Shown here one piece after another: positions 31,360-44,088 of a stretch of DNA of 64,000 nucleotides; within the stretch, counting starts at the first letter, position 1, and every line of letters starts with the position of its first letter. Origin of the DNA: Candidatus Daviesbacteria bacterium (GTDB taxonomy: Bacteria > Patescibacteriota > Microgenomatia > Daviesbacterales > UBA10151); NCBI GenBank assembly GCA_016176335.1, contig JACOXI010000005.1:63391-127390 (forward strand), written 5' to 3'. The notes beneath the pieces were generated by a model. That model did no database searches. It was not told the DNA's origin and was given only the letters and a program-made list of their open reading frames with translations. Made by a program: the position numbers and the translations under genes.

Positions 31360-31554
31360 ATGAAAAAAGGAGTTAGTTTTATTAAGGAAGTTTACGAAGA
31401 GTTAGTAAAAGTGGCCTGGCCCACCAGAGAACAAACTATCCGCTACACTGTTTTGGTAATCATTGTCACTTTGGTTGTGGGAGTTTTTTTGGGAGGATTT
31501 GATTATATTTTGACAGCAATAACAGCATTTATACTAGAACACTATGGACGATGA
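31360..31554 (+). CDS. secE: preprotein translocase subunit SecE
   Basis: 64 aa. VKVAWPTREQT motif followed by a single TM. Immediately upstream of nusG. Confidence 0.7.
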   Translation: MKKGVSFIKEVYEELVKVAWPTREQTIRYTVLVIIVTLVVGVFLGGFDYILTAITAFILEHYGR

Positions 31555-32308
31555 TTTAAAACTCAAAACTCAAATGTCAAATGTCAAAGCTGGAGAGGAT
31601 CAGACAGCAAAATCTGAACCAGTTAATGATATAAGCGAAGGGAGACTGCCTCCGAACGCAGCGAGCCCTAGAGTCGCCGAAGGCGACCGTACCCGAGGCG
31701 AAGCCGAAGGCGAGCCGCAGGGCGTAAGTACCGAAGGTACAGTTGGCGAGCAAGAGAGCGGGGCGGTCGACCGATCAGGCAATCCTAACGCCAAATGGTA
31801 TGTTGTTCATACTTATTCCGGTCATGAAAACAAAGTGGCGCACACTTTAAAGCAGCGGATTGAATCCGAACATTTGGAAGAGAAAATTTTAGATGTTTTG
31901 GTGCCTATGCAGGATAAAATTGAAATAAAAGGCGGCAAAAAAGTAAGCATTAAAGAAAAAATCTTCCCCGGCTATATTTTGGTAAAAATGGTTTTGGAAG
32001 ATAGTTCCTGGCTGGCTGTCAGAACAACTCAAGGTGTCACCTCCTTTGTGGGTATGGGTAATAAACCCACCCCGATCTCCGATGCGGAGGTGGCCACCAT
32101 AGTCAAATTTACCCAAGAGGAGGCTCCTGTTTATAAGCAGGTTTTCTCTGTTTCGGATACTATCAAAATTGTGGACGGGCCTTTTGCAGATTTTATTGGT
32201 AAAGTGGATAATGTGGATGAGGAAAAAGGCAAGGTTAAGGTTTTGGTATCAATATTCGGGCGTGAAACACCAGTGGAGTTGGATTTTCTGCAGGTGCAGA
32301 AGATATGA
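31544..32308 (+). CDS. nusG: transcription termination/antitermination factor NusG with ~75-aa repeat-derived N-terminal extension
   Basis: NGN start KWYVVHTYSGHENKV and KOW C-terminus. No in-frame start codon near the NGN domain, so the extension (heptamer tract plus GC-rich element) appears to be translated. Confidence 0.85.
   Translation: MDDDLKLKTQMSNVKAGEDQTAKSEPVNDISEGRLPPNAASPRVAEGDRTRGEAEGEPQGVSTEGTVGEQESGAVDRSGNPNAKWYVVHTYSGHENKVAHTLKQRIESEHLEEKILDVLVPMQDKIEIKGGKKVSIKEKIFPGYILVKMVLEDSSWLAVRTTQGVTSFVGMGNKPTPISDAEVATIVKFTQEEAPVYKQVFSVSDTIKIVDGPFADFIGKVDNVDEEKGKVKVLVSIFGRETPVELDFLQVQKI
31640..31775. repeat. GC-rich element copy inside the nusG N-terminal extension
   Basis: gggagactgcctccgaacgcagcgagccctagagtcgccgaaggcgac...gttggcgagcaagagagcggggcggtcgaccgatcagg. 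Palindrome gtcgccgaaggcgac. Read in a different frame than the PBP1A copy. Confidence 0.7.
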
Positions 32309-32368
32309 TCGGCTCTTCGTATATCGAATATTGGTCATCCGATAAACGATAAACGATATTCCAAACAA

Positions 32369-32794
32369 ATGGCTAAAAAAGTTAAAACCTATATTAAACT
32401 AACTATCCCTGCAGGAGTAGCAACTGCAGCTCCTCCAGTGGGAACAGCCTTAGGCCCGCACGGTTTACCTATCATGGAGTTTGTCAAGGCATTTAATGAA
32501 AGAACCAAAGATAAACAGGGTACTGTTTTACCTGTGGTGATCACAGTTTATGAGGATAGAACCTTTTCTTTTATTACCAAAGAGCCTCCTGTTGCTGAAA
32601 TGATTAAAAAAGCCCTCAAGCTGGAGAAAGGCTCTGGCCAAGCCTTAAAAGAACCTGTTGGAACCCTGACAGCAACCCAAGTTGAAGAAATTGCCAAAGC
32701 CAAAATGCCTGATTTGAATGCAAATTCGGTAGAGGCTGCTATAAAAATTGTTGAAGGAACAGCCAAAAGTATGGGAGTAAAAATTAGTAGTTAG
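32369..32794 (+). CDS. rplK: 50S ribosomal protein L11
   Basis: 141 aa. Motif [19 protein letters not shown]. Confidence 0.9.
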
Positions 32795-32805
32795 TATTAA
32801 GTATT

Positions 32806-33723
32806 ATGGGCAAGACAAAAGTAGCCATCATTGATGATTCAGCGCAAGAAGAGAATAGAGAATCAAGAATAAAGAATAAAGCCTCTAAGAAAAGGGCTAA
32901 AGCGACCGAAGTGAAGTCTGATGCAGCTTCTCGACTGTTTGAGCCAGGCGAGGATGGCCAAAAGGCTCAAGCTTTGACGAGCGTGACGCCATCCGAGCCG
33001 ATTCCGCCAAAGGCGGAAGGCGAGTTGGAGAAGCAAATTCAGACGAACGAGAGAGTACAACCTAAAAAACCTCAAAAACCAGGCAAAGCTAAGCCCCGCT
33101 CCAAGAAATACCAAGAGGTCGTAAAAGATTTGGATAGAACTAAATCCTACCCTTTAGGTGAGGCTATAGAACTTAGTAAAAAACTGTCCTATTCTAAATT
33201 CACAGGTACACTTGAAGCACATATCAATACCACTCAAACAGGAATCCGTGGTTTAGCCTCCCTTCCCTATTCTTCAGGTAAAAAATTACGCATCCTGGTC
33301 TTTGGAAAAGGTGCCAAAGACGCAGGTGCAGATCTGGTGGGTGATGATTCCACCATTGAGGCTATCTCCCAGGGCAAAATTGATTTTGACCTTCTGATAA
33401 GCACTCCTGAATGGATGCCAAAGCTTGCCAAAGTGGCAAGGGTTTTGGGACCTAAGGGGCTCATGCCCAATCCCAAAAATGGCACCATCACAGACGACCT
33501 CAAAAAAGCAGTGGAAGGATTTCAAGCCGGAAAAACAGAATACAAAACAGAGGCCAAAGCAGCAGTAATCCACCTTGGGCTGGGAAAGTTGAATCAACCT
33601 ACCGAGGAGTTATCTGCCAATGTTCAAACTTTGCTTCAAACTTTAGGCAAAACCAGAGTTAAAAAAGTCACTCTTTCCCCCACCATGGGACCATCAGTTA
33701 AAGTTGATCTAGCTTCCATGTAA
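32806..33723 (+). CDS. rplA: 50S ribosomal protein L1 with ~90-aa N-terminal extension
   Basis: L1 core starts near KKYQEVVK...EAIELSKK. N-terminal Lys/Glu-rich extension carries a GC-rich stretch. Confidence 0.85.
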   Translation: MGKTKVAIIDDSAQEENRESRIKNKASKKRAKATEVKSDAASRLFEPGEDGQKAQALTSVTPSEPIPPKAEGELEKQIQTNERVQPKKPQKPGKAKPRSKKYQEVVKDLDRTKSYPLGEAIELSKKLSYSKFTGTLEAHINTTQTGIRGLASLPYSSGKKLRILVFGKGAKDAGADLVGDDSTIEAISQGKIDFDLLISTPEWMPKLAKVARVLGPKGLMPNPKNGTITDDLKKAVEGFQAGKTEYKTEAKAAVIHLGLGKLNQPTEELSANVQTLLQTLGKTRVKKVTLSPTMGPSVKVDLASM

Positions 33724-33729
33724 AATAGT

Positions 33730-34317
33730 TTACCCTTGCGAATGAGTTTTGGCTATTTTCTCTATAGCTTCCTCTACATATTCTTCTATCTGTCTTGCTA
33801 ACCTTATGTGAACTTTAAGCACTGCCTGCTCGTCAGTCGGATGAACATAACCAGTTATGCCATAAAAAGGCGGTTTTAACAAAGGGGGCAAACTGTTAAT
33901 AACCCCAGAAAGCCAGGTGGCTCTGATCAAGCTATGCGGATCAGGAATCTCCTGCTCTGGGAAACCAACGTACTCCGGCAAGGTATAAACATTACCGGCC
34001 TCTCCTATTCCTGTTAAAGCTCTGACTTGCCTTACCTGGTCACGCTCAAAACATAACACCAGATCGGAATTTCCTAAAAGTTCGGCTGTTGCCCTTGTCG
34101 GTATATGGTGCTTGGGAGGTTGATATCCCAGTCTCTCCAAAGCAGAACGCATTTCATAGCTTAGATCCATAAAAGGAGGTTCAATTAAACCGGCCGACGC
34201 ACACTTAACACCAAGAAGACCTTTTTCTTCAGCCATAGCTTTAGCAATGCATTCGGCAACCGGACTTCTGCTTATATTGGCCCAGCAGACAAAGGTCACG
34301 CTGTTGATCTGTTCCAT
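33730..34317 (-). CDS. low-molecular-weight protein tyrosine phosphatase / ArsC-fold
   Basis: 195 aa. P-loop CX5R(S) motif VCWANISRSP at the N-terminus. Confidence 0.55.
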   Translation of the reverse strand: MEQINSVTFVCWANISRSPVAECIAKAMAEEKGLLGVKCASAGLIEPPFMDLSYEMRSALERLGYQPPKHHIPTRATAELLGNSDLVLCFERDQVRQVRALTGIGEAGNVYTLPEYVGFPEQEIPDPHSLIRATWLSGVINSLPPLLKPPFYGITGYVHPTDEQAVLKVHIRLARQIEEYVEEAIEKIAKTHSQG

Positions 34318-34339
34318 AAGTCCAAGTATTATAGCAGTT

Positions 34340-35323
34340 CTATTTTCTACGTAAGGCCTTCTTCAGTATCAGGTTCAAATCCAACTTTAGATTAAATATA
34401 GATATCAAACCAAGTATTATCACAAATATAGCTGTTGTTATATGCGATAAAACTACCATGGATGAAGCTACATTTACTTCAAATCCAAACACTCCGGACA
34501 AAATTAAACTTCCTGATACCTCCGCAGACCCCACATAACCTGGAGCTGCCGGAATAAGATAAGTTAAGGCAGAAAGCATCTGACCAAAATACATCGTGAG
34601 ATATCCCGGGTTAACCCCCAGTGATTGAAAGGTAAAAAACCAAATCCCCGCATCAGCCACATAAGCCAACAATGTTAAAACAATTAAAGTCATCAGATCT
34701 TTTTTGCTTCTTTTTAAAATAGAAAAAGACTCTAAAATAAATGACGTAAACCTAACAAAAGGTATCTTAATAAGATTAAATATAAATAGTGGTGTCAAAA
34801 AAACGACCAATTTTTTAGAAAAATCTAATCTGAATATTGCCAAATATGTGACCAGCAGGAATAAACAGAATACACTCGATATAATAATGATAAAATTTTT
34901 AGGCAAAGTTGTGGGGATAACAAGCAAAAAAATTGACGATGCAGCCAAAACAGTTAAAAAATCAATAAACCTGTCCATAAACACCCAAATTATTGATTTT
35001 CCAAAGCTTAACTCATATTTTGTATTAAGATATACACCTTTGCCAAAATCCCCTGCTCTAATCGGAATAAAAAAATTCAACAGTATTGCCGCACCATTTA
35101 AAAACACCAAATTCCAAAGGGGAATTTGTTTGATTTCCGAAAGGAAAACCTTCAGTCTTATTGCCCGAATGAACGGCGAGGCAAACATACAAAAAAATGC
35201 AGGAAGAAGAAAAATAAGATTGGCCTCGGATAATTTTTGCCATATTTGAGTAAGGTCAACAAATCGAGACCAAATAAAAATTAAGACTAATCCCACAATT
35301 GTATTGAAAATAATCTTTATCAT
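34340..35323 (-). CDS. polytopic membrane protein (UPF0104 / lysyl-PG-synthase-TM-like)
   Basis: 327 aa, 8 or more TM helices. Confidence 0.35.
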   Translation of the reverse strand: MIKIIFNTIVGLVLIFIWSRFVDLTQIWQKLSEANLIFLLPAFFCMFASPFIRAIRLKVFLSEIKQIPLWNLVFLNGAAILLNFFIPIRAGDFGKGVYLNTKYELSFGKSIIWVFMDRFIDFLTVLAASSIFLLVIPTTLPKNFIIIISSVFCLFLLVTYLAIFRLDFSKKLVVFLTPLFIFNLIKIPFVRFTSFILESFSILKRSKKDLMTLIVLTLLAYVADAGIWFFTFQSLGVNPGYLTMYFGQMLSALTYLIPAAPGYVGSAEVSGSLILSGVFGFEVNVASSMVVLSHITTAIFVIILGLISIFNLKLDLNLILKKALRRK

Positions 35324-35362
35324 TAGTTGCCAAACTCTCCCTTTTAAATATACACTATTAAT

Positions 35363-35436
35363 AGCTATCAGTCTTCAGCTATCAGCTTTCAGACTGAAAA
35401 ATTGTCTGACGACTGATGACTGACAGCTGACGACTA
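35363..35436. repeat. palindromic heptamer-repeat element of the ctgatag/gctatca family
   Basis: agctatcagtcttcagctatcagctttcagactgaaaaattgtctgacgactgatgactgacagctgacgac. Lies between the divergent starts of the membrane-protein and dockerin genes. Confidence 0.75.
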
Positions 35437-35442
35437 ATTACC

Positions 35443-36339
35443 ATGTTTTCTACCTTTAAGCAAAGAGTGCTTCTTATAATATATACTATTGTTATACTGT
35501 CCATCCCTGTGGGCACGTATCTTATTTCTCAATATCAAACTATCCGAAGCAGGGCGGAAGAAGCCAAGCCAACCACACCACCTGTGGAAAGAATTACACC
35601 TGTACCTGAAAGCTCTTCCAGCAGTAATCTTACCAATCTATCCGAAGCGGATTCCACTTTGGAAGATCTGTTAAAGATCACTCCCACTCCCTCACCCCAA
35701 GCAACCATAAGCCCGACAATTGCCACATCTTTCGGCCCCACTCTATCATTTAAAATCACCATTGAAGGAAGGCCAAAAGAAAAACAGGCAGGGAAAGTTT
35801 TTGTAGGGGTTTTGGAAGGTGATTTGGTGACAAACCCCAAGTTTTTATTAACCTTTTTGGCTGATGTCCCCGCGAGCGGTGAATACGGCAATCTGTCAAT
35901 TGCAGGATTAAACCCCGGCAGCAAATACACGGCGCTTTTGAAGGGCAGAGGACAAATTGCCAAAGCTTCCACATTTATTATGTCTCCTGCAGAATCTAAA
36001 TTAAACGGAGGTCAAGCCTTAAATCTTGTTTCAGGAGATTTAAATGAAGATAACATCATCAATACAGCGGATTATTCTATTGCTCAAAAAGCCTTCAACT
36101 CAACTCCAACTCAATCAAACTGGAATAAAAATGCCGATATAAATGATGATGGAGTTGTCAATATATTTGATATCTCTGTAATCATTAAAAATTTGGGCCA
36201 AGTTGGAGATTCCGGAGTTTGGGTTTCACCTATTCCAACCGCCACATCATCGGGAGCGCTGACAGAAGATTCAAATAATCTTCCTGTTGGTTCTTCTGGA
36301 GGATCAAACAATGGCTACTGGCTATGGATACCCAAGTGA
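35443..36339 (+). CDS. secreted dockerin-domain protein
   Basis: 298 aa. N-terminal TM/signal and Pro/Thr linker. C-terminal paired dockerin type-I calcium-binding repeats (DLNEDNIINTADYS... DINDDGVVNIFDIS). Confidence 0.6.
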   Translation: MFSTFKQRVLLIIYTIVILSIPVGTYLISQYQTIRSRAEEAKPTTPPVERITPVPESSSSSNLTNLSEADSTLEDLLKITPTPSPQATISPTIATSFGPTLSFKITIEGRPKEKQAGKVFVGVLEGDLVTNPKFLLTFLADVPASGEYGNLSIAGLNPGSKYTALLKGRGQIAKASTFIMSPAESKLNGGQALNLVSGDLNEDNIINTADYSIAQKAFNSTPTQSNWNKNADINDDGVVNIFDISVIIKNLGQVGDSGVWVSPIPTATSSGALTEDSNNLPVGSSGGSNNGYWLWIPK

Positions 36340-36403
36340 TATTGCAACCACACAACGCTAATTGACAAATGCAAGCCCATAGTTTATACTTATTCATTAT
36401 CAT

Positions 36404-37045
36404 ATGAGTGTTTTAGAAAAACTTGCCCGAGTCGGTCTTAGCTCCGCAATGCTTTTAACTGCATGTGATTCCGGACCTAGTACGTAAGAATCATCAATCC
36501 AACCACCGGTCAAACCGAACGCAACCGTAATAAGTCAAGCTCAAGCTACGCCAACCCCGCCATCAAAGCCTGGAGAAAGAGTTGTTTTTGAAACCCCTGA
36601 ACCAACACCTCCTTCCCTAAGACTTCCAGACCTTCACGCTTACCTTGGATATCCAACCATTATATCTATCAACGGAGAAAGCTATACAAGCTTTATGGAG
36701 AAAAGAGGATATAAAATTAATATATATGAGTCACAAATCCCATATAAAGGAACGGTTGTACCACAAGAAGGGCTAATCACTCATCTTCTACCAACAACCG
36801 ATAGTAAGATCAGCAGCTTAGGTGGAGAATATTCTCTAAAACAGGGTCATATCCAGGTTGGATTAAAATATTTTGTGGAAATTAAAAAAAGAGATGGGAC
36901 AAGAAAGGAACTTTGGGTGGCCCGATTCCTAATGGTCAGAATGGGTAATAACCCACCAGTTCTTACCTTAGGATTTAACGCCGTTGAATTTAAAGAGGGT
37001 GAAAGTGGAAAAACCAACACATATATCAACCTCCTTCCAGGATGA
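36404..37045 (+). pseudogene. lipoprotein gene interrupted by in-frame TAA (signal peptide MSVLEKLARVGLSSAMLLTAC then stop at 36485..36487, frame continues to 37045)
   Basis: Lipobox LLTAC. The same frame stays open through a Pro/Thr linker into the 116-aa ORF 36695..37045. Confidence 0.35.
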
Positions 37046-37136
37046 CTACCGGGAAATACTGAATAGTTACATGATTGGCCTATTGACAAGGAGGAAAAAG
37101 TTATTTTAAACTGAAAGTAGCAGACGGGCAAACCAA

Positions 37137-40100
37137 ATGGTTAGCCCAAAAAAATCTCTGGTGGCCATTATTGGCCTGATAGCAGTTTCCCTGTGGATTT
37201 TAATTCCCCAGTCTGCTTTTGCCACTTCAAGTAAATATTATGATTTTGGCCCATATTATGGCGGTTCTTCTGTTTTAGGTTTTTCCTTCTCCAACTTGGA
37301 AAACCTGCCTGTCCCTCAAATTGCGGATAGCCTGATGCCACCTAAAGCAGGCGGTATTTTGCCTGACAATCCTTTTTATGCTTTGGAAAAGGTGGTGGAG
37401 AATGTCCAACTTACTTTTACATTTGATCCTGTAAAAAAAGAGCAGTTGAGGCTTGATATTGCTAGCGAAAGATTATCTGAAGCTAAAACTTTAATGGATC
37501 AAGGTAAAACCCAAGCAGCCTCTCAAGCCCTGGATGATTACGGCCAGACCTTAACTGCCCTCAGCCAAAATCTAGCGGCCATTGCTCAAAGAACCGATCC
37601 TGCTGCCCAAGCTTTAGTCAACAAAGCAGAGGAGGTATCTGCTACCCAGGCAGTGGTTACTCAAGCCTTAAGTTTAACTTCTTCTCCTGCTCAAGCTGAA
37701 AGCTGGACCCAAGCCACCAACATCACCAGATACTCTCTTGACAAGGTAGCCGAGGCCAAAGGCGAACCTGCTATACCTACGGAGTTTTCTTCCAGTATCC
37801 AACAACTCAAAGAACAGGGGCTGATTTCGGAAGAAGAAAGTAATAAGTTATACAGTTTCAAAAACCGAAGCGAAGTCAGGGACGAGCTTAACAAACTCTC
37901 TTCCTCGGGCCAATTTCCTATTTCGGAAGCTGTTAGATTAGACGATGCTGTCACCAAATATTTCCCGGATGTACAGAAACAGTACCTAACTAATTTACAG
38001 GTTGTAGAATTAAAATCCTATCAAACTTTACCCCAGCCTGACAGCAAAACGGCAGAAGAGCTGAAAAAGTGGCAAGCTAATCCAGCTACCCCCCCATCAA
38101 ATGATATCAAACCATATTTGTGGTATAACCGAGCCCAGGATTTAGCCCGCGATGTTGACCTGTCGAACTTTTCACCAACCCAGCAGGGAGACTTAGTCAA
38201 ATTCTACCCTCAAGCTGTTCAAACTAACCCAACTTATTCCCCTCCGCCCAGCCCTTCTCCTGTACCAGCTGACGCCTCGCCTGCCCCCTCACCCACCTCT
38301 GCTGTTCCTGCCTCACCTACACCTTCCCCCACACCTCCTGCTGCCGAACCTTATCTGCAAGGTACAGGTGGAGCTTTGCCTGGTGAGCCTTTCTATTTTA
38401 TAAAGCAGTGGGGAGAGGGTTTAACCTATACCTTTACTTTTGATCCGGCCCAGAAAGCCAGACTGAGGATGCAGGAGGCTGAACGCCGTCTGGCTGAAGC
38501 CGAAGCACTGGCCAATGATCCCAAGAAAGCCACCTTATATGAATCTACCCTCAAAAGTTACCAGCAAACTCTCGCTGATGCTTCAAACATCGTCAAAAAT
38601 CTGAAAGATACCAAAGCATCTGAAGAGGCGGCAGCCAGATTAGAAGCTCAGGCAGCCAGACATGAGGTGGTTTTTGAAAAAGGGCTCTTGCCTCCTCCTC
38701 CTCAAAATCCCACACTGACCTCTGATGTTATCAGGACAGCGGAGGATGCCATGGACAGAAGCGCTGATGTTTTGGACCGACCGGCGCTGCCGCCTGTCTT
38801 GGCCTCTCGTCTGCAAGATCTCAAAGCCCAGGGCCTGATCCTGCCTGAAGAAGCAGAAGATTTAACCCGATCTGCTTCGCGAGAAGAGGCGCGGGAAAAA
38901 ATTAGAAAATTGGTTGAGCTTAACACTTTTCCCCCGGCTGATGCCAAAAAACTGGATGAAGCCCAAGCTGTAGTTTCCCCTGCAGACTACAATCAGCTGG
39001 TGGAGGTCAGGAAAGTTGAGGAGTTGCAAAGTTTGAGATCAGTCCAAACTGATCTGGCTCAAACTCCCACCTTAAGATCCACAGCCACCACTTTAGCCCA
39101 AAAGGAGGTGGCTTTAACTAACTCTTTTGATCCTACACTGATCAAACCAGAAGATCTAGGAGGTAAAGAAAACTTAATTAAAGCCTATGAAAGACTGACA
39201 GCGGTTCCTCGTCCTATTAATGGCGGGCAATTTGGTCCCGAAGTCACACCTGGCGCTCAACCATCAGCTACTCCCAGACCTCAAGATGCGGTTTTGTCTG
39301 CTTGTCCTGAGGGGGCTACCTTCAAACAATCTGAAGGCTGTATTTGGGCAGATAATGGCAAGCGGATTAATGATTATGACCAGTATAAATGTGAAGGCCC
39401 AAGACAATATTATTCTTTTGCTGTTAAGAAATGTGTGGCTTCTGACTCAACTCGCGGTTATCAAGAAGATGCCCAGCCAATCTGTCCAGTAGGTTATTCC
39501 TGGAACTGGCAGGCTCAAAGCTGTCAGACAGCAACAGGCGGGATTCTTCCTTTCCCCAGCCCCTCGCCTGTAGTAGACCCTATTAATGATGAGGAACGAG
39601 AGGCCAGGTCAAAGAGTTGTCCTGAGGGAGCCTCCTATCAACCGCCCAATGGCTGTGTTTGGGATAAAACTGGCAAATCAGTTTATGATCCTGAGCAATA
39701 TAGATGCGGTCGAGGTCAATACTATTCATTTGAGGAAGGGAAATGTGTTGCCTCGCCAAAAGAGGGAGAACCTTATCCCAAAAATACCACTCCAGTTTGT
39801 AAAGAAGATGGAGCTTATTGGAGTTGGAACGAAGGAAAATGTATTCAAGCTGTTTTTCCATCAGAGCAAAAAGGAGGACCGGGGGCAATTATAATTGATG
39901 AGTTTAGACCTCCTTTTATCGCTCCCAACAGTCCATTCTATATTATTAAACAAGCAGCGGAAAGAGTACAACTTGCTATAGCATTTACTGCCCCAGCCAG
40001 AGAACGAGTCAGCTTGTCTCAAGCTAAAGAAAGATTAATTGAAGCTGCGGACGCTCTAAAAAGAAATGATGAAGGAGCTGTTAAAAAAGCTTTAGACACT

Positions 40101-41801
40101 TATACTTCTATGATGCAGGATATTGTATCTGACGTATCTAAGGAACAGCTGACAGAGGGGGCCAAAATCGAAATCGGGAAGCTGTTAGCCGAGAAATCAG
40201 TTGAGCAAAACCTGCTATTGCAGAAGCTTCAAGCTTTGGCCCCAAGTGCACAAGATACGGCCATCAGTGCTGCGGTATCAGCCACCATCTTAGGGGTGGA
40301 TAAAGCAGCAGATGTTGCTGGCGAGCCGCCAATTCCAGATGAACTCAGAAGCAAAATTGAAGCTTTGCCGGAAAAGATGATCTCAGAAGAAGACAAAAAG
40401 AAACTTTTGGAGATGAAGTCTCGAGTTGAAGCCAGACTCCAAATAGGAGGCTTGGTAGCAAACGGGGCTTTAACCCAAACTGACACCAGCTTCTTAAATG
40501 AGGATTTTGATGCTGTTGATCAAAACGCCAGAATCAAGGTGGAGGAACTCAAAAAACTAGAGGAGATTGCCGATGCTGCCGAGACCAAAGATAAACTGGA
40601 AGAAAAGATAGGTAAGAACGAAGAAATTGCCCAAAAACTCCAAGACTTTGAGAAAACCTTTGAGCCGGGCAAAGAGGTACCAGCTGAAATCCGTCCTTAT
40701 ATCCGGCTAACCCGCATTAACGAGATAGCCCAAACCGTCAGACCCGATACTATCAACCTTGAAGACTTCTCAAACCGCAAGGATCTTATGTTGGCAGTAG
40801 CCACTCTACAGGAAGAATACAGGCCCACCATAGATGCTTTAAGACAAGTAGAAGACTTTAGAAGAAGAAATCCCAATGCTGCCTTGCCGCTTACTTTGGC
40901 CCGGGTTGCGGCTTTATCCGTAAGCCTTGGGGTAAGAGAAAAAGCCGGACCATGTTATCTACCAACACCCCTCTTCCCGGCCAACACCCCTTGTCCGGCG
41001 CCGGGAGCAGCCATCCCCATTAGTTCCTTTACCGGGATCGGGCCTACCATTGTTGATGAGTTTCGCCCCGGCTGGCCAGGTTCAGCATATCCGTCAGCCT
41101 ATCAAACAGGTCCTACTACCGATAAAGATGGCAATCCCTTAGTCTATGGCCAAGGGCCTCAACCAACCAGCGCCGGGGTTTGTCCTTCAGGTTCTCACTG
41201 GATGTATGATAGTGGTGGCTGGTGTATGTCAAACAGTGGCAACTACAGTTCCTCCTATTCCTACACGCCTTCTGGCACTGGTTCCGGTTACACCCCTTAT
41301 AGTCCTTATTACACTGCCCCGGGAGCGCCTCCGGCAAGCTATGGCTACCCAGGATCCGGTTCTTATTCTAACTTCATAAACACTTACTCGCCTCCAAATT
41401 ACTGGAGTCCTGCCCCCACCAATTACACTACCACCCCACCTACTGGCACGGTGCCAGGATCTGGACCCAGGCCAACTGCTCCTGGTCAGTGTCCATCAGG
41501 GTATCATTGGATGTCTGATTCCGGTGGCTGGTGTATGGCTGACGGACCAACCTATGTACCCAGCGGCTCACCATACAATTATCCGGCGGGTACAACTACC
41601 AGTGGCGTGCCGTCAGGAAGCTTGAATTGCGGCTCCCAGAGCTTTAATCCGGCTACCGGAAGGTGCAATGATGGCGCCTGCCCCGGAGGCTTTAACTGGG
41701 ACGGCTCAAGATGTGTAGCCAGCAGTCCCAGTTACTATTCTCCTAACTTAAACCGGATATTACTGGGATGGCAGAGGCTGTATTCGCACAAGCCCTACTG
41801 A
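37137..41801 (+). CDS. giant secreted modular cysteine-rich protein (N-terminal 1554 aa before frameshift)
   Basis: Signal peptide. Three ~55-aa modules (P.NPFY.L/IK...TFTFDP...A.ERL.EA). Four Cys-rich ~45-aa modules (CPEG...C.W...GK..YD...Y.C....YYSF...KCVAS). G/S/Y/T-rich tail with CPSG[SY]HWM.DSGGWCM repeats. Confidence 0.7.
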   Translation: MVSPKKSLVAIIGLIAVSLWILIPQSAFATSSKYYDFGPYYGGSSVLGFSFSNLENLPVPQIADSLMPPKAGGILPDNPFYALEKVVENVQLTFTFDPVKKEQLRLDIASERLSEAKTLMDQGKTQAASQALDDYGQTLTALSQNLAAIAQRTDPAAQALVNKAEEVSATQAVVTQALSLTSSPAQAESWTQATNITRYSLDKVAEAKGEPAIPTEFSSSIQQLKEQGLISEEESNKLYSFKNRSEVRDELNKLSSSGQFPISEAVRLDDAVTKYFPDVQKQYLTNLQVVELKSYQTLPQPDSKTAEELKKWQANPATPPSNDIKPYLWYNRAQDLARDVDLSNFSPTQQGDLVKFYPQAVQTNPTYSPPPSPSPVPADASPAPSPTSAVPASPTPSPTPPAAEPYLQGTGGALPGEPFYFIKQWGEGLTYTFTFDPAQKARLRMQEAERRLAEAEALANDPKKATLYESTLKSYQQTLADASNIVKNLKDTKASEEAAARLEAQAARHEVVFEKGLLPPPPQNPTLTSDVIRTAEDAMDRSADVLDRPALPPVLASRLQDLKAQGLILPEEAEDLTRSASREEAREKIRKLVELNTFPPADAKKLDEAQAVVSPADYNQLVEVRKVEELQSLRSVQTDLAQTPTLRSTATTLAQKEVALTNSFDPTLIKPEDLGGKENLIKAYERLTAVPRPINGGQFGPEVTPGAQPSATPRPQDAVLSACPEGATFKQSEGCIWADNGKRINDYDQYKCEGPRQYYSFAVKKCVASDSTRGYQEDAQPICPVGYSWNWQAQSCQTATGGILPFPSPSPVVDPINDEEREARSKSCPEGASYQPPNGCVWDKTGKSVYDPEQYRCGRGQYYSFEEGKCVASPKEGEPYPKNTTPVCKEDGAYWSWNEGKCIQAVFPSEQKGGPGAIIIDEFRPPFIAPNSPFYIIKQAAERVQLAIAFTAPARERVSLSQAKERLIEAADALKRNDEGAVKKALDTYTSMMQDIVSDVSKEQLTEGAKIEIGKLLAEKSVEQNLLLQKLQALAPSAQDTAISAAVSATILGVDKAADVAGEPPIPDELRSKIEALPEKMISEEDKKKLLEMKSRVEARLQIGGLVANGALTQTDTSFLNEDFDAVDQNARIKVEELKKLEEIADAAETKDKLEEKIGKNEEIAQKLQDFEKTFEPGKEVPAEIRPYIRLTRINEIAQTVRPDTINLEDFSNRKDLMLAVATLQEEYRPTIDALRQVEDFRRRNPNAALPLTLARVAALSVSLGVREKAGPCYLPTPLFPANTPCPAPGAAIPISSFTGIGPTIVDEFRPGWPGSAYPSAYQTGPTTDKDGNPLVYGQGPQPTSAGVCPSGSHWMYDSGGWCMSNSGNYSSSYSYTPSGTGSGYTPYSPYYTAPGAPPASYGYPGSGSYSNFINTYSPPNYWSPAPTNYTTTPPTGTVPGSGPRPTAPGQCPSGYHWMSDSGGWCMADGPTYVPSGSPYNYPAGTTTSGVPSGSLNCGSQSFNPATGRCNDGACPGGFNWDGSRCVASSPSYYSPNLNRILLGWQRLYSHKPY

Positions 41802-42588
41802 TACTTCTTACTATTCTCCCAGCTCGTACTCGCAAGGTTGCACTCCAGGTTATTACTGGAATGGCAGTAAATGTGTGGCAGGTAGCAATGAAGGTTCAGG
41901 GTGGTCAGATACAGCTGCCAGATCCCAATCCTGGTGTCAACCTCCCTCAAACGGCTGTGGCTCTAATTCTTATTGGGATTATGGTAGCTGTTACTGCAGC
42001 AGCTCAACCACTTATTATGGAGGTAGTGGTCCCTCACCCAGCAATCAATGCCAGGGTCTAAGCTGCGGTGGAGGCGCATGGTTAGATTACTCAACCTGTA
42101 GTTGTAAGTATTCAGGTGGTTCTGGAACTAGTTCTACAGGATCTACCATCACTTGTTATCCTCCTTCCGCAGGTTGTCCAGGCGGCTGGTATGATTATGG
42201 CACTTGCAGCTGCAAAACCAGCTACTCCGGCACAAGTTCCGGCTCAGGAGGAACAACTACCACCGGTTCTTGTCCTTCAGGCTCCCATTGGATGAGTGAT
42301 AATGGTGGTTACTGCATGTCTGATACCGGAGGAGGCACATCCTCTTCCGGCTCTACCACCACTTCATCCGGAGGATCAACATCAAGCGGATCCTGTCCTT
42401 CGGGATATCATTGGATGAGCGATAATGGTGGCTGGTGCATGCAAGACGGCGGAGGCTCGACCTCAAGTAGCGGCTCAACAACTACTACCAGTGAACCGGC
42501 TCCGACCACTACCACCACTACCACATCTGAACCGGCCCCCACACCTACCAGTTCCGAACCTGCGCCAACACCTGCTCCCAGCCCTTAG
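41752..42588 (+). CDS. C-terminal continuation of the giant protein in the +1 frame (frameshift near 41745..41760)
   Basis: The frame holding ORF 41875..42588 encodes TGYYWDGRGC...CTPGYYWNGSKC, then CPSGSHWMSDNGGYCM and CPSGYHWMSDNGGWCM repeats identical in type to the upstream ORF. Ends in a T/P-rich tail. Confidence 0.55.
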   Translation, partial: TGYYWDGRGCIRTSPTDTSYYSPSSYSQGCTPGYYWNGSKCVAGSNEGSGWSDTAARSQSWCQPPSNGCGSNSYWDYGSCYCSSSTTYYGGSGPSPSNQCQGLSCGGGAWLDYSTCSCKYSGGSGTSSTGSTITCYPPSAGCPGGWYDYGTCSCKTSYSGTSSGSGGTTTTGSCPSGSHWMSDNGGYCMSDTGGGTSSSGSTTTSSGGSTSSGSCPSGYHWMSDNGGWCMQDGGGSTSSSGSTTTTSEPAPTTTTTTTSEPAPTPTSSEPAPTPAPSP

Positions 42589-42801
42589 TCCTTAATGTCA
42601 GTCAATACGACACATTGACAAACATGACATCATAAGTTAAAATAATTTGGCTTAAGACAGTGAGTGGAGCGAAGCGACATCCTGAGCATAGTCGAAGGAT
42701 GCTTTACACCATAAATCTCACCGAGGCAGTTTAGTATATCGTAAGATTGAATATCGTATATCGGAAAACCGATAAACAATAAACGATTAACGATAAACCA
42801 A

Positions 42802-42826
42802 AAACGCCTCAGAAAGGCGTTTTTTA
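42802..42826 (+). terminator. rho-independent terminator-like hairpin plus T-run abutting the rplJ start codon
   Basis: aaacgcc-tcagaaa-ggcgttttttaa, then ATG of rplJ 2 nt later. A-run on the 5' side makes it bidirectional in form. Confidence 0.5.
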
Positions 42827-42827
42827 A

Positions 42828-43364
42828 ATGGCTAAAACTAAACAACAAAAAGAGCAAGCAGTACAACAAATACAAGAAAAGCTGGGCAAGGCCAAAGCTA
42901 TAGTTTTTGCTGACTATAAAGGCTTGACCATGAAGCATTTATCCGATTTAAGAAATAAATTGCGTGATGTTAATGGCGAATTCAGTATAACCAAAAATAG
43001 CTTACTTGAACGTGCTCTTCCCGCCTCCAACTTTGAAGGTCCAACAGCCACTCTTTTTGCGTATGATGATCAAATTACCCCTATTAAAATTTTGGTCAAA
43101 GCGCTAAAGGATGCTGCCATTGGTAAAGTTAAGGCGGGGTTTTTAGGAGTTGATGTCCTGGATGAAAACAAGATTCTTACACTGGCCAGTCTGCCCTCTA
43201 AAGATGAACTGAAAGGTCAAGTTGTGGGACTATTGGCAGCTCCACTTCAAGGTATGGTATCAGTACTACAAGGAAATCTAAGAAATTTAGTGCACGTAGT
43301 GCGCGAACTTCGTTCAGTATATACATTATCAGAAATTCAAAAAGCGAAAGGAGGTGAAAGTTAG
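42828..43364 (+). CDS. rplJ: 50S ribosomal protein L10
   Basis: 178 aa. Start MAKTKQQKEQAVQQIQEKLGKAKAIVFADYKGLTMKHLSDLR. Confidence 0.85.
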   Translation: MAKTKQQKEQAVQQIQEKLGKAKAIVFADYKGLTMKHLSDLRNKLRDVNGEFSITKNSLLERALPASNFEGPTATLFAYDDQITPIKILVKALKDAAIGKVKAGFLGVDVLDENKILTLASLPSKDELKGQVVGLLAAPLQGMVSVLQGNLRNLVHVVRELRSVYTLSEIQKAKGGES

Positions 43365-43440
43365 TATATCGTAAATCGGTTATCGTATATCGGAAACACA
43401 CAAACCATAAACGATAAACCATAGACGATCAAACAACCAT

Positions 43441-44088
43441 ATGGCAGATGATCAACAAAAACAAGATCAACAATCAGAACAGCCTAAAACTGAAGAATCA
43501 ACAGAGGGAGCGAAGGCTGCCGCAGATTCTCAACTGTCAGAGGCAGGCGAGATCAGCAGCGAGAGCACAAGTTCTGACGTGCACGAGCCTGGTCGAGCTG
43601 GTGGCGAACCGCCAGCTGGCGGTGAGCCAGCCGAGTTGGAGAATCAAGGCCAGCCGAGCGACCAAAGCGCACCAGCCAAGAAAAAACCTGCTCCTAAACC
43701 AGTTTCAGCAAACTTAGAAAAGATAATTGAACAAATTGAAAAATTATCAGTTCTAGAACTGGCTGATTTAGTACATGCTTTAGAGGATAGATTTGGGGTT
43801 TCAGCATCCGCACCAGTTATGGCAGCAGGACCAGCAGCCGCCTCGCCTTCGGCGGGCGAGCCAACGGAGGAAAAAACTACTTTCAATGTGGTTTTAACAG
43901 CAGCAGGTGCCAATAAAATTGCAGTGATAAAAGCTGTCAGGGAATTAGTCCAGACTTTAGGGTTAAAAGAGGCAAAAGATTTGGTGGAGTCAGCTCCAAA
44001 ACCTGTTTTGGAATCAGTTAATAAGCAGACTGCTGAAGAGGCAAAACAGAAGCTTACGGCAGCAGGAGCGACAGTAGAACTTCAATAA
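43441..44088 (+). CDS. rplL: 50S ribosomal protein L7/L12 with ~90-aa GC-rich N-terminal extension
   Basis: L12 core from [28 protein letters not shown] to ...AAGATVELQ. Acidic/Pro-rich N-terminal extension. Confidence 0.85.

What the first reader, a model, noticed from the sequence alone, without database searches (positions are those of the whole stretch)
37137..42588. Giant modular cysteine-rich secreted protein (~1800 aa) with a single-base frameshift near 41750
The ORF 37137..41801 and the +1-frame ORF ending 42588 carry the same repeat types: CPSG[SY]HWM[SY]D[NS]GG[WY]CM, and PGYYW[ND]G..C. The frames differ by one base around cctaacttaaaccggatattactgg. Removing one A from the ttaaacc run yields ...SYYSPNLTGYYWDGRGC..., restoring a continuous reading frame. 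This is either a homopolymer sequencing error, a recent pseudogenisation, or programmed slippage. Architecture: signal peptide; three ~55-aa P.[ND]PFY..K...TFTFDP helical modules; four 4-Cys ~45-aa modules; a G/S/T/Y-rich tail with repeated 2-Cys CPSGxHWMxDxGGxCM units; a terminal T/P-rich stalk. No obvious match to a well-known adhesin family.
Basis: seen in the sequence. Interest (0 to 1): 0.75.

Follow-up and report, generated by a model that had tools for sequence, protein, structure and literature searches.

The report
Giant surface-protein gene broken by 17-base gap
This is one conserved gene for a roughly 1,820-residue secreted, cysteine-hairpin envelope protein of an uncultured groundwater bacterium (Candidatus Daviesbacteria); it is cut in two by a missing 17-base stretch, not an extra base, so it is an ordinary recent gene truncation or assembly error in an uncharacterised protein family.

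Summary
ORF 37137..41801 and the +1-frame ORF ending at 42588 are two pieces of one gene. About 50 orthologues (43-70% identity, 1,600-1,940 aa) in Daviesbacteria, Levybacteria, Blackburnbacteria and other Microgenomates encode it as one uninterrupted ORF.

The window does not carry an extra A. It lacks 17 nt between 41754 and 41755 that 14 distinct orthologue DNAs all have. Those bases encode Q-S-S-C-G-P, including the first Cys of a conserved C-G-P-G-Y-Y-W-D-G-x-G-C hairpin. No relative is shifted at this site, so programmed slippage is very unlikely.

The 277 downstream codons are still open. They show dN/dS of 0.11-0.15 and contain residues invariant across the family. The event is therefore very recent, or it is a local assembly error. 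Reads are needed to decide between these.

The next gene upstream, a lipoprotein, carries a nonsense codon that six independent assemblies reproduce. This favours real decay at this locus.

The protein has a signal peptide, three homologous ~280-aa helical DUF5667 super-repeats, two 6-Cys modules, an array of disulfide β-hairpins and a Thr/Pro tail. No solved structure matches it. Its function is unknown, most likely envelope or attachment.

The parts
37137..41753 (+). 5' part of the giant gene in its native frame (aa 1-1539), annotated in NCBI as hypothetical protein HYS96_04380 / MBI2018911.1
   Evidence: ORF list. 100% match to P0001. Colinear with about 50 full-length orthologues. dN 0.17-0.27 against dS above 1.3 versus P0002.
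37137..37223 (+). Signal peptide (aa 1-29: MVSPKKSLVAIIGLIAVSLWILIPQSAFA|T)
   Evidence: This is the only strongly hydrophobic stretch in the protein (Kyte-Doolittle 2.19 at aa 5-27). A Lys-Lys n-region and an A-F-A cleavage-type motif are seen in the sequence. The same layout occurs in orthologues. No signal-peptide predictor was available, so this is inferred.
37320..38156 (+). Helical super-repeat R1 (aa 62-340), containing DUF5667 domain 1 (aa 73-164, nt 37353-37628)
   Evidence: Pfam PF18915, 159.6 bits for the whole protein, best stretch aa 73-164. R1 is homologous to R2 (31% identity, E 7e-31) and to R3 (28%, E 6e-28).
38367..39206 (+). Helical super-repeat R2 (aa 411-690), containing DUF5667 domain 2 (aa 412-506, nt 38370-38654)
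39303..39842 (+). Two homologous 6-Cys modules (aa 723-796 and 828-902), each made of three disulfide-bracketed β-hairpins
   Evidence: Cys spacing. The two modules are 39% identical, E 2e-22. In the AF2 model each consecutive Cys pair brackets a hairpin. All 12 Cys and 15 aromatic residues are invariant in 16 diverse orthologues. Among 1.84 billion representatives the module is found only in this family (8 hits at E<=1e-30).
39891..40739 (+). Helical super-repeat R3 (aa 919-1201), containing DUF5667 domain 3 (aa 928-1016, nt 39918-40184)
   Evidence: Pfam E 1.1e-11. Homology to R1 and R2.
40953..41753 (+). C-terminal region part 1 (aa 1273-1539): conserved Tyr/Ser/Gly/Pro-rich segments, HWM hairpins 1 and 2 (nt 41164-41230 and 41473-41539), and the CGSQSF..C and CPGGFNWDGSRC hairpins
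   Evidence: Cys units. DNA repeat family D1. Near-invariant columns in 46 orthologues.
41751..41757 (+). Lesion: junction AAC-C|GGA. Seventeen nt are missing between 41754 and 41755 (give or take 2 nt of possible CC microhomology). Relatives encode (Q)SSCG(P) here.
   Evidence: DNA alignments with P0002 and P0004 genes and with 14 distinct orthologue DNAs. Unit SPNL[TN]QSSCGPGYYWDG.GC is present in 26 of 46 orthologues.
41754..41801 (+). Out-of-frame tail of the truncated product (RILLGWQRLYSHKPY) and the premature TGA stop
   Evidence: Translation.
41755..42588 (+). 3' part of the same gene, now in the +1 frame (277 codons plus stop): GYYWDGRGC, CTPGYYWNGSKC, three Cx..WxDYxxCxC hairpins, HWM hairpins 3 and 4 (nt 42254-42320 and 42377-42443), and the Thr/Pro tail (42448-42585)
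   Evidence: Translation. Only the terminal stop in this frame. 79% aa identity to the P0002 C-terminus. Invariant C/S/G/H/M/D residues. AF2 predicts a string of 9 β-hairpins with unit pLDDT 75-87 and linkers below 50.
41809..42252 (+). Mosaic cassette inside the 3' part: 81-92% nt identity to a patchy subset of orthologues whose remaining gene sequence is only 65-79% identical
   Evidence: Sliding identity. blastn against loci. dS 0.30 here against above 1.6 elsewhere, with omega 0.11-0.15.
35443..36339 (+). Context: conserved upstream neighbour, a membrane-anchored 298-aa protein with a type I dockerin domain
   Evidence: Pfam PF00404, E 5.6e-10. Adjacent to the giant gene in L001, L002, L003, L052 and other loci.
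36404..37045 (+). Context: lipoprotein-like gene (lipobox LLTAC) directly upstream, inactivated by an in-frame TAA at 36485-36487 (Gln CAA in relatives)
   Evidence: Frame translation. Full-length 215-216-aa homologues P0052-P0054. The TAA is present in six independent Logan assemblies that are 100% identical to the window.
42633..42835 (+). Context: probable L10 leader with terminator-like hairpin (42800-42824) ahead of rplJ, preceded by a promoter-like site at 42615-42643. The giant gene therefore lies between the rplKA and rplJL units, not inside one of them.
   Evidence: Rfam RF00557, 35 bits (below the gathering score of 44), E 2.7e-4, full model length. Fold z-score -4.7. Promoter and terminator scan.

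Best explanation
The interval holds one orthologous gene for a roughly 1,820-aa secreted envelope protein. Microgenomates (CPR/Patescibacteria) bacteria carry it as a single ORF.

The lesion. In this Candidatus Daviesbacteria population the gene has lost 17 bp between 41754 and 41755. The lost bases are codons Q-S-S-C-G plus two bases of the next Pro codon, and they include a conserved hairpin cysteine. The loss moves the reading frame by +1. It truncates the product at 1554 aa with 15 aberrant residues. The last 277 codons are stranded; they hold about nine disulfide hairpins, two invariant HWM units and the Thr/Pro tail. I take this to be a genuine, very recent deletion: the downstream codons show no decay, and the neighbouring lipoprotein gene is demonstrably knocked out in the same population. 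It is neither a one-base error nor programmed frameshifting.

How the intact protein most likely works (inferred, not shown):
- A Sec signal peptide exports it.
- Three homologous helical-bundle DUF5667 super-repeats, joined by Pro-rich linkers, form an extended spacer.
- The 2 x 6-Cys modules and the C-terminal beads-on-a-string array of disulfide-stapled β-hairpins display invariant aromatic and His/Met residues. These form the ligand-contacting part, most plausibly binding cell-wall or host-surface glycans.
- The protein would act as an envelope or attachment fibre. The membrane-anchored dockerin neighbour may hold it at the cell surface.
For: One gene:
- About 50 orthologues at 43-70% identity cover 85-100% of the repaired protein, each as a single 1,600-1,940-aa ORF.

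17-nt gap:
- Alignments with orthologue genes and with 14 distinct orthologue DNAs show it.
- Unit SPNL[TN]QSSCGPGYYWDG.GC is in 26 of 46 orthologues.
- The one-base repair leaves an odd Cys count of 41.

Still coding downstream:
- There are no internal stops in the +1 frame, against 18 in frame 0.
- Omega is 0.11-0.15.
- Changes specific to the window lineage are 7 synonymous to 4 nonsynonymous, with 9 of 14 at third positions. The intact relatives show the same pattern.
- Invariant residues lie in this part.

Favouring a real event:
- No exact repeat of 20 nt or more flanks the site, and the window has no repeated 31-mers, so repeat collapse is not an explanation.
- The adjacent lipoprotein gene carries a CAA-to-TAA nonsense codon reproduced in six independent assemblies from two run series.
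- The dockerin-lipoprotein-giant gene order is conserved in relative L052, where the lipoprotein is intact.

Protein anatomy:
- Pfam DUF5667 x3; super-repeat homology.
- AF2 models.
- Invariant Cys and aromatic residues.
- 4 of 5 His and 8 of 18 Met lie in the four HWM units.
- There is a single N-terminal hydrophobic segment and no LPXTG motif.
- The neighbourhood is envelope-related: PBP1A, LPG_synthase_TM, WecG, GT4, MreB, PEGA, sortase, SLT.
- Large Cys-rich extracellular proteins have been proposed for attachment in another CPR lineage (PMC4736985).
Against: - No read-level data could be examined. Uncurated metagenome-assembled genomes carry local assembly errors: 13 were found in one 1.13-Mb CPR genome, including one in a repeat-containing protein gene (PMC7111523).
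- The complete lack of decay downstream fits an artefact equally well.
- Independent Logan contigs all break inside the gene, so none covers the lesion.
- A single-copy gene conserved across the group would be expected to be needed.
- The functional model is inference only. Fold searches found no informative structural relative. No paper mentions DUF5667. No binding partner or anchor has been shown.
Confidence: 0.5

Rival explanations
1. Local assembly error. The cells carry an intact, full-length gene, and the 17-nt gap was created when the metagenome-assembled contig was built through a region that shares k-mers with co-occurring relatives.
For: - Base rate: 13 local assembly errors in one 1.13-Mb CPR genome, one of them in a repeat-containing protein gene, with IDBA-UD singled out as error-prone (PMC7111523).
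Independent Logan assemblies break at these points.
- The downstream frame is perfectly preserved, with omega 0.11-0.15.
- The gene is conserved as an intact ORF in all relatives.
Against: - No repeat flanks the gap and there are no repeated 31-mers in the window, so a de Bruijn path skipping exactly 17 nt is not expected.
- Flanking sequence on both sides aligns cleanly to orthologues.
- The neighbouring gene carries a verified inactivating mutation in the same population. Real decay at this locus therefore does occur.
Confidence: 0.4
2. One reading: one extra A in the TTAAACC run, from a homopolymer sequencing error or a 1-nt insertion. Removing it would restore the true protein.
For: Deleting one A formally restores an open 1816-aa frame.
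Against: - All 14 orthologue DNAs have 17 additional bases at exactly this point, and none has the shorter arrangement.
- The repaired unit lacks its first Cys, and the protein would have 41 Cys.
- A 3-base run is not an error-prone homopolymer on short-read platforms (general knowledge).
Confidence: 0.03
3. Programmed +1 ribosomal frameshifting or transcriptional slippage produces the full-length protein from the two frames.
For: Both frames are open and the downstream part is under purifying selection. A rare CGG codon follows the AAC at the junction (seen in the sequence).
Against: - No orthologue is frameshifted at this site.
- A shift anywhere in 41752-41798 would still give a product lacking the conserved QSSCGP segment.
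- There is no prfB-like CUU-UGA-C or Shine-Dalgarno stimulator, and no A/T run long enough for transcriptional slippage (sequence; criteria from general knowledge).
- A 17-nt deletion cannot revert, so it cannot act as a phase-variation switch.
Confidence: 0.02
4. Two genuine separate genes: a 1554-aa protein and an independently translated ~237-aa Cys-rich protein starting at GTG 41875.
For: the ORF listing reports a GTG-initiated 237-aa ORF.
Against: - The GTG is the Val of the conserved K-C-V-A-G motif inside the orthologous single ORF.
- The open frame and the homology extend 120 nt upstream of it, back to the lesion.
- This exact product is not in the 15-billion-protein collection.
- No Shine-Dalgarno sequence precedes it (sequence).
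- No relative has a split gene.
Confidence: 0.02

Closest known systems
Pfam PF18915 (DUF5667) domain-containing proteins, specifically the ~1,700-1,900-aa orthologues annotated 'hypothetical' or 'DUF5667 domain-containing protein' in Candidatus Daviesbacteria, Levybacteria, Blackburnbacteria and Microgenomates MAGs (e.g. HY383_02365, HYS95_02555, UT77_C0017G0010)
   Same: Colinear over 85-100% of the length at 43-70% identity. Same three DUF5667 super-repeats, the same 12-Cys central module, the same HWM hairpins and the same Thr/Pro tail. In Daviesbacteria the position is also the same, between rplKA and rplJL.
   Different: This copy is interrupted by a 17-nt gap. Its C-terminal hairpin array has its own combination of cassettes. 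The family itself has no known function and no literature.
Large cysteine-rich extracellular proteins of CPR Peregrinibacteria (Anantharaman et al. 2016, PeerJ 4:e1607; PMC4736985)
   Same: CPR bacteria. Proteins above 1,500 aa with a signal peptide and predicted extracellular location. Cys-containing and variable between strains. Proposed to act in attachment.
   Different: Those proteins have about 7% Cys and occur in a 14-gene cluster. This one has 2.3% Cys confined to hairpin modules, is mostly helical, and appears once in each locus recovered (one MAG carried homologues on two contigs). No sequence relationship was tested or seen. The similarity is one of kind, not of family.
Gram-positive wall-anchored fibrillar adhesins (LPXTG / MSCRAMM type)
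   Same: N-terminal signal peptide, tandem modular repeats, a Ser/Thr/Pro-rich C-terminal stalk, and a sortase gene nearby.
   Different: There is no LPXTG motif, no C-terminal hydrophobic segment and no charged tail. There are no Ig-like or other adhesin domains in Pfam. The rod is α-helical.
Small disulfide-rich glycan-binding modules (CBM14 peritrophin-A; hevein/CBM18 type)
   Same: Six Cys per ~75-85-aa module, β-hairpins with invariant exposed-type aromatic residues, extracellular setting. A weak CBM_14 hit appeared.
   Different: The CBM_14 score of 19.3 bits is below the 22.1 cut-off and covers only 22 residues. A profile search of PDB sequences and the fold searches found nothing. This is a lead only.
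Programmed +1 frameshift genes (prfB / RF2 type)
   Same: Two consecutive open frames offset by +1 that together encode one conserved protein.
   Different: The shift is not conserved in any relative, has no recoding signal, and coincides with the loss of 17 nt of conserved coding sequence.

Membership tests
Pfam PF18915 DUF5667 | Match to the family HMM above the curated gathering score (27 bits) | tested here: met
   159.6 bits, E 2.8e-47, three stretches. Individual domains score E 1.7e-17 and 1.1e-11.
Microgenomates giant DUF5667 / Cys-hairpin protein (orthologous group) | Full-length colinear similarity to the ~1,700-1,900-aa proteins | tested here: met
   50 proteins at 43-70% identity; most cover 88-100% of the repaired query.
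Microgenomates giant DUF5667 / Cys-hairpin protein (orthologous group) | Central pair of 6-Cys modules with invariant Cys and aromatic positions | tested here: met
   All 12 Cys are invariant in 16 diverse members, the window copy included. The module is exclusive to this family among 1.84 billion representatives.
Microgenomates giant DUF5667 / Cys-hairpin protein (orthologous group) | Single uninterrupted ORF through the C-terminal hairpin array and the last HWM unit | tested here: not met
   A 17-nt gap at 41754/41755 shifts the frame and gives a stop at 41799-41801. The gene is a member by descent but is disrupted.
Microgenomates giant DUF5667 / Cys-hairpin protein (orthologous group) | Gene order rplK-rplA-(LPG_synthase_TM)-dockerin protein-giant-rplJ-rplL | tested here: met
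   Seen in the window and in L001, L002, L003 and L017. Rearranged but still linked in L010, L019 and L027. Not seen in the Levybacteria or Blackburnbacteria loci.
Programmed ribosomal frameshift gene | Frameshift site conserved among orthologues | tested here: not met
   All orthologues carrying the unit read straight through.
Programmed ribosomal frameshift gene | Shifted product colinear with the unshifted homologues, with no residues lost | tested here: not met
   Six conserved residues (QSSCGP) are absent whatever the shift point.
Programmed ribosomal frameshift gene | Frameshifted peptide detectable | not testable with these tools
   Needs proteomics of the source community.
Sortase-anchored LPXTG surface protein | C-terminal LPXTG-like motif followed by a hydrophobic segment and a charged tail | tested here: not met
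   A regex search found no such motif near the C-terminus. The only hydrophobic segment is at aa 5-27. The protein ends ...EPAPTPAPSP.
Cellulosome-type scaffoldin (cohesin-bearing partner of dockerin proteins) | Cohesin domain detectable | tested here: not met
   Pfam finds only DUF5667 and a marginal DUF5874 hit in the giant protein. The dockerin domain is in the neighbouring gene.
CBM14 / peritrophin-A chitin-binding domain | Match to PF01607 above its gathering score | tested here: not met
   19.3 bits against a cut-off of 22.1, over 22 residues only. No PDB profile hit.
Pfam PF19202 DUF5874 | Match above the gathering score (27.1 bits) | tested here: inconclusive
   27.4 bits when the whole ORF was scanned. 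Not reported when the module region alone was scanned.

The most novel reading that the evidence does not exclude
The family is a Microgenomates-specific envelope or attachment fibre. Its invariant disulfide-stapled hairpins (aromatic-rich units and the His/Met-bearing CPSGxHWMxDxGGxCM units) would be a new class of mini-domains that bind glycans or metals. Their C-terminal cassettes, and the adjacent dockerin-lipoprotein genes, would be exchanged laterally between co-occurring lineages. This clonal groundwater population would then have been caught losing the module, through a nonsense codon in the lipoprotein and a 17-bp deletion in the fibre, for example under phage or host pressure.
Probability: 0.2. 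Interest if true: 0.55.

Novelty: new member of a known kind. Interest (0 to 1): 0.3.

Why it matters
The frameshift matters mainly for annotation. The NCBI record lists a 1554-aa 'hypothetical protein', and the same holds next door, where only a 116-aa tail of a broken lipoprotein gene is listed. Both are fragments of disrupted genes. The diagnosis of 'one extra base' would have produced a wrong repaired protein.

The protein family is of more interest. It is conserved (one copy in each locus recovered), exported and about 1,800 aa long, with no solved structural relative and no literature. It sits among cell-envelope genes in an episymbiotic bacterial group whose surface biology is almost unknown. 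It also shows mosaic, laterally exchanged cassettes.

If reads confirm the deletion, this population offers a natural knock-out of two adjacent surface-protein genes.

Tried and rejected
1. Independent assemblies of the lesion:
- An exact-product look-up of the 1554-aa ORF found nothing.
- Logan contigs found through the neighbouring 116-aa ORF and through L10 are 100% identical to the window. They end at or before 38821 or start at 42199/42207, so none covers 41754.
- I predicted contig ends from 31-mers shared with relatives. Two look-ups of the guessed 5'-cut products (38748-41798 and 38793-41798) found nothing.

2. Two scans of JGI metagenome contigs, one with a junction-or-intact-allele pattern and one with an upstream 26-mer, gave 0 hits. 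The population is not in that collection.

3. Structure-based function:
- Foldseek against PDB: no hit at E<=0.001 (best 0.25), and no hit at all for the C-terminal model.
- afdb50 was unavailable.
- PDB sequence and profile searches gave nothing meaningful.

4. NCBIfam gave only noise.

5. Literature: 0 papers mention DUF5667.

6. The third homologue search, using the low-complexity HWM region, returned only one fragment (P0056), which is an orthologue C-terminus with an intact QSSCGP. It gave no information about other architectures.

7. The two weakest hits of the representative search (P0061, a TPR protein, and P0062, an SRCR protein) are repeat-driven false positives.

8. Repeat-collapse misassembly is rejected. 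No exact direct repeats of 20 nt or more flank the lesion.

9. Chimeric assembly as the cause of the high-identity cassette is rejected. The cassette is 81-92% identical to every other genome, never about 100%. The same mosaic pattern also holds between other genomes (P0002 against P0003: 90.8% against 71.6%).

10. A look for other split genes in the window (overlapping same-strand ORF pairs) showed none by Pfam.

Full report
**Source and observation.** The window comes from a Candidatus Daviesbacteria metagenome-assembled genome (Microgenomates group, Patescibacteria/CPR). The 1554-aa ORF is 100% identical to NCBI MBI2018911.1, 'hypothetical protein HYS96_04380', on a 160-kb contig. ORF 37137..41801 (+) and a +1-frame open stretch ending at 42588 exist as described. 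Downstream of 41755 the +1 frame has only its terminal stop in 278 codons, while frame 0 has 18 stops. The CPSGxHWMxDxGGxCM units lie on both sides of the break, at aa 1349 and 1452 before it and 1712 and 1753 after it. They form a four-copy 67-nt DNA family with 69-76% identity. Removing one A from TTAAACC does give a continuous 1816-aa product.

**What the lesion really is.**
- A search of 5.8 billion proteins found 50 relatives at 43-70% identity, nearly all 1,600-1,940 aa. Most cover 88-100% of the repaired query, each as a single ORF. They come from Daviesbacteria, Blackburnbacteria, Levybacteria and other Microgenomates.
- I fetched the DNA of the two nearest (P0002 and P0004) and aligned it. 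The window lacks exactly 17 nt between TTAAACC and GGATATTACTGG.
- The same 17 nt (consensus A-A/G-N-N-N-A-G-Y-T-G-Y-G-G-N-C-C-N) are present in all 14 distinct orthologue DNAs that carry this unit.
- At protein level, 26 of 46 orthologues have SPNL[TN]QSSCGPGYYWDG[RKQ]GCI[PR]T. The window has SPNLN|GYYWDGRGCIRT.
- The missing bases encode Q-S-S-C-G plus two bases of the Pro codon. They include the first Cys of a two-Cys hairpin.
- A loss of 17 nt (minus 2 modulo 3) accounts for the +1 offset.
- The lesion is therefore not a homopolymer error.
- It is also not programmed. No relative is shifted, any shifted product would still lack conserved residues, and no recoding signal is evident.

**Is the downstream part decaying?** No.
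- The cassette at 41809-42252 has dN/dS of 0.11-0.15 against P0002 and P0003.
- Changes specific to the window lineage are 7 synonymous to 4 nonsynonymous, with 9 of 14 at third positions. The two intact relatives show the same pattern.
- Residues invariant across 28 orthologues (the last HWM unit: C, S, G, H, M, C, M, D) lie in the stranded part.
- The truncated product therefore lacks conserved elements.
- The event is either very recent or an artefact.

**Real deletion or assembly error?** This could not be settled.
- For an artefact:
  - Uncurated CPR genomes from metagenomes carry local assembly errors. Thirteen were found in one 1.13-Mb genome, one of them in a repeat-containing gene (PMC7111523).
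Independent Logan assemblies break at these points.
- For a real event:
  - No repeat flanks the gap, and there are no repeated 31-mers in the window.
  - Both flanks align cleanly to orthologues.
  - The gene immediately upstream is itself inactivated. Region 36404-37045 encodes a lipoprotein (lipobox LLTAC) with an in-frame TAA where relatives have Gln. Full-length 215-216-aa homologues exist.
  - Six independent Logan assemblies from two run series are 100% identical to the window, TAA included.
  - In relative L052 the dockerin-lipoprotein-giant order is conserved and the lipoprotein is intact.
- My estimate is about 50-55% real deletion and about 40% assembly error.
- None of the available assemblies covers position 41754. 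Two guessed partial products and two metagenome scans found nothing.

**Anatomy of the protein.**
- Residues 1-29 form a signal-peptide-like N-terminus, the only hydrophobic segment in the protein.
- Three super-repeats of about 230-290 aa are mutually homologous at 25-31% identity (E 1e-19 to 1e-31). Each opens with a DUF5667 domain, at aa 73-164, 412-506 and 928-1016. AlphaFold2 models R2 as a confident helical assembly (pLDDT around 90).
- Between R2 and R3 lie two homologous 6-Cys modules, aa 723-796 and 828-902, 39% identical. In the model each consecutive Cys pair brackets a β-hairpin. All 12 Cys and 15 aromatic residues are invariant in 16 diverse orthologues. An exhaustive HMMER scan of 1.84 billion representatives finds this module only in this family.
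- After R3 come conserved Tyr/Ser/Gly/Pro-rich segments and a string of two-Cys hairpins. The stranded 277 residues are predicted as nine hairpins (unit pLDDT 75-87) separated by disordered Gly/Ser/Thr linkers.
- The protein ends in a Thr/Pro tail.
- Four of the five His and eight of the eighteen Met in the whole protein sit in the four HWM hairpins.
- There is no LPXTG motif and no C-terminal anchor.

**Comparison with known structures and families.**
- Sequence searches of PDB found nothing.
- Foldseek found no hit at E<=0.001 (best 0.25), and none at all for the C-terminal model.
- NCBIfam returned noise.
- CBM_14 is sub-threshold, and DUF5874 is borderline and not reproducible.
- No paper in the library mentions DUF5667.
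- The closest described concept is the set of large Cys-rich extracellular proteins of CPR Peregrinibacteria, proposed for attachment and variable between strains (PMC4736985).

**Genomic context.**
- The gene lies between rplK-rplA and rplJ-rplL. Upstream of it sit a minus-strand LPG_synthase_TM gene, a membrane-anchored dockerin protein and the broken lipoprotein gene.
- This arrangement recurs in several Daviesbacteria (L001, L002, L003, L017). It is rearranged but still linked in others, and absent in the Levybacteria and Blackburnbacteria loci.
- rplJ keeps its own promoter-like site and a probable L10 leader (RF00557, 35 bits, below the gathering score of 44, E 2.7e-4). The insertion therefore sits between two transcription units.
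- The wider neighbourhood is envelope-related: VanW, PBP1A, WecG, GT4, MreB, a PEGA protein, sortase and SLT.

**Mosaicism.**
- The 444-nt cassette at 41809-42252 is 88-92% identical to P0002, P0003 and L013, 85% to P0005, and 81.5% to L029. The rest of each of these genes is 65-79% identical to the window or barely alignable.
- The cassette is absent from equally related genes (L005, L008, L009, L010, L017).
- dS is 0.30 in the cassette against above 1.6 elsewhere.
- P0002 against P0003 shows the same contrast, 90.8% against 71.6%. This is therefore not an assembly chimera of this contig.
- A second patch, the dockerin plus lipoprotein genes at 35443-37033, is 89% identical to L052 against 70-76% in the flanks.
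- Lateral exchange of surface-protein DNA among related lineages is the simplest explanation. It was not formally tested.

**Most likely mechanism of the intact protein (inferred).**
- The protein is exported by Sec.
- The helical super-repeats and Pro-rich linkers form an extended spacer.
- The disulfide-stapled hairpins, with their invariant aromatic and His/Met residues, form the binding surface for glycans or possibly metals.
- The protein has no anchor of its own, so it may be retained through the neighbouring membrane-anchored dockerin protein or through an uncleaved signal anchor.
- Shown: the domain content, the conservation and the predicted folds.
- Inferred: the location, the disulfide pairing, the ligand and the role.

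**Verdict.** This is a correctly spotted broken gene with a wrong diagnosis of the break. The gene belongs to an existing but uncharacterised family, so I file it as a new member of a known kind. The frameshift itself is ordinary. The family, its exclusive Cys modules and its mosaic cassettes are moderately interesting. Interest 0.3.

Noticed in passing
window 36404-37045 (+), stop at 36485-36487: A ~213-codon lipoprotein-like gene (lipobox LLTAC) directly upstream of the giant gene is interrupted by an in-frame TAA where relatives have Gln. NCBI annotates only the 116-aa tail (HYS96_04375). Full-length homologues of 215-216 aa exist, and six independent Logan assemblies reproduce the TAA exactly.
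   Followed up: yes
window 41809-42252; loci L001, L003, L004, L013, L029: A 444-nt cassette inside the giant gene is 81-92% identical at nucleotide level to a patchy subset of orthologues. The rest of the gene is 65-79% identical. dS is 0.30 in the cassette against above 1.6 elsewhere. This suggests lateral cassette exchange among lineages.
   Followed up: partly
window 35443-37033 versus L052:2651-4209: The dockerin and lipoprotein genes are 89% nt identical to a Logan contig (SRR22387933). The flanking genes on that contig (L1, LPG_synthase_TM, giant) are only 70-76% identical. This is a second mosaic patch in the same locus.
   Followed up: partly
window 42615-42835: A promoter-like TTGACA-17-TAAAAT is followed by a structured ~200-nt leader. 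The leader matches Rfam L10_leader over the full model length but below the gathering score (35 against 44 bits, E 2.7e-4). It ends in a perfect terminator-like hairpin (42800-42824) 3 nt before the rplJ ATG. Fold z-score is -4.7.
   Followed up: partly
window 31544-44088: The usually contiguous nusG-rplK-rplA-rplJ-rplL cluster is split by about 9 kb. The inserted genes are an LMW phosphatase (minus strand), LPG_synthase_TM (minus strand), a dockerin protein, the lipoprotein and the giant gene. The same split recurs in several Daviesbacteria genomes.
   Followed up: partly
window 43441-44088, 32806-33723 and 31544-32308: Ribosomal protein L7/L12 is 215 aa, with a ~90-aa acidic, low-complexity N-terminal extension before the L12_N domain (aa 93-134). 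L1 (305 aa) and NusG (254 aa) also have N-terminal extensions of about 80-125 aa. The orthologous L12 in related loci is 137-168 aa.
   Followed up: no
L001 21590-25517 (contig CAZCNP010000001.1): The genome carrying orthologue P0002 has, about 6 kb downstream of its giant DUF5667 gene, a 5,984-residue gene with MerR, Hint/intein, NYN and Peptidase_S74 hits. It also has a 649-aa trypsin-like protease inserted between its giant gene and rplJ.
   Followed up: no
loci L011, L013, L014, L018, L019, L021-L023 and others: Many MAG records that carry this Microgenomates-specific gene, next to Daviesbacteria-type synteny, are titled 'uncultured Gammaproteobacteria bacterium', or Planctomycetia, or Dehalococcoidia. 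These are probably mislabelled or contaminated bins.
   Followed up: no
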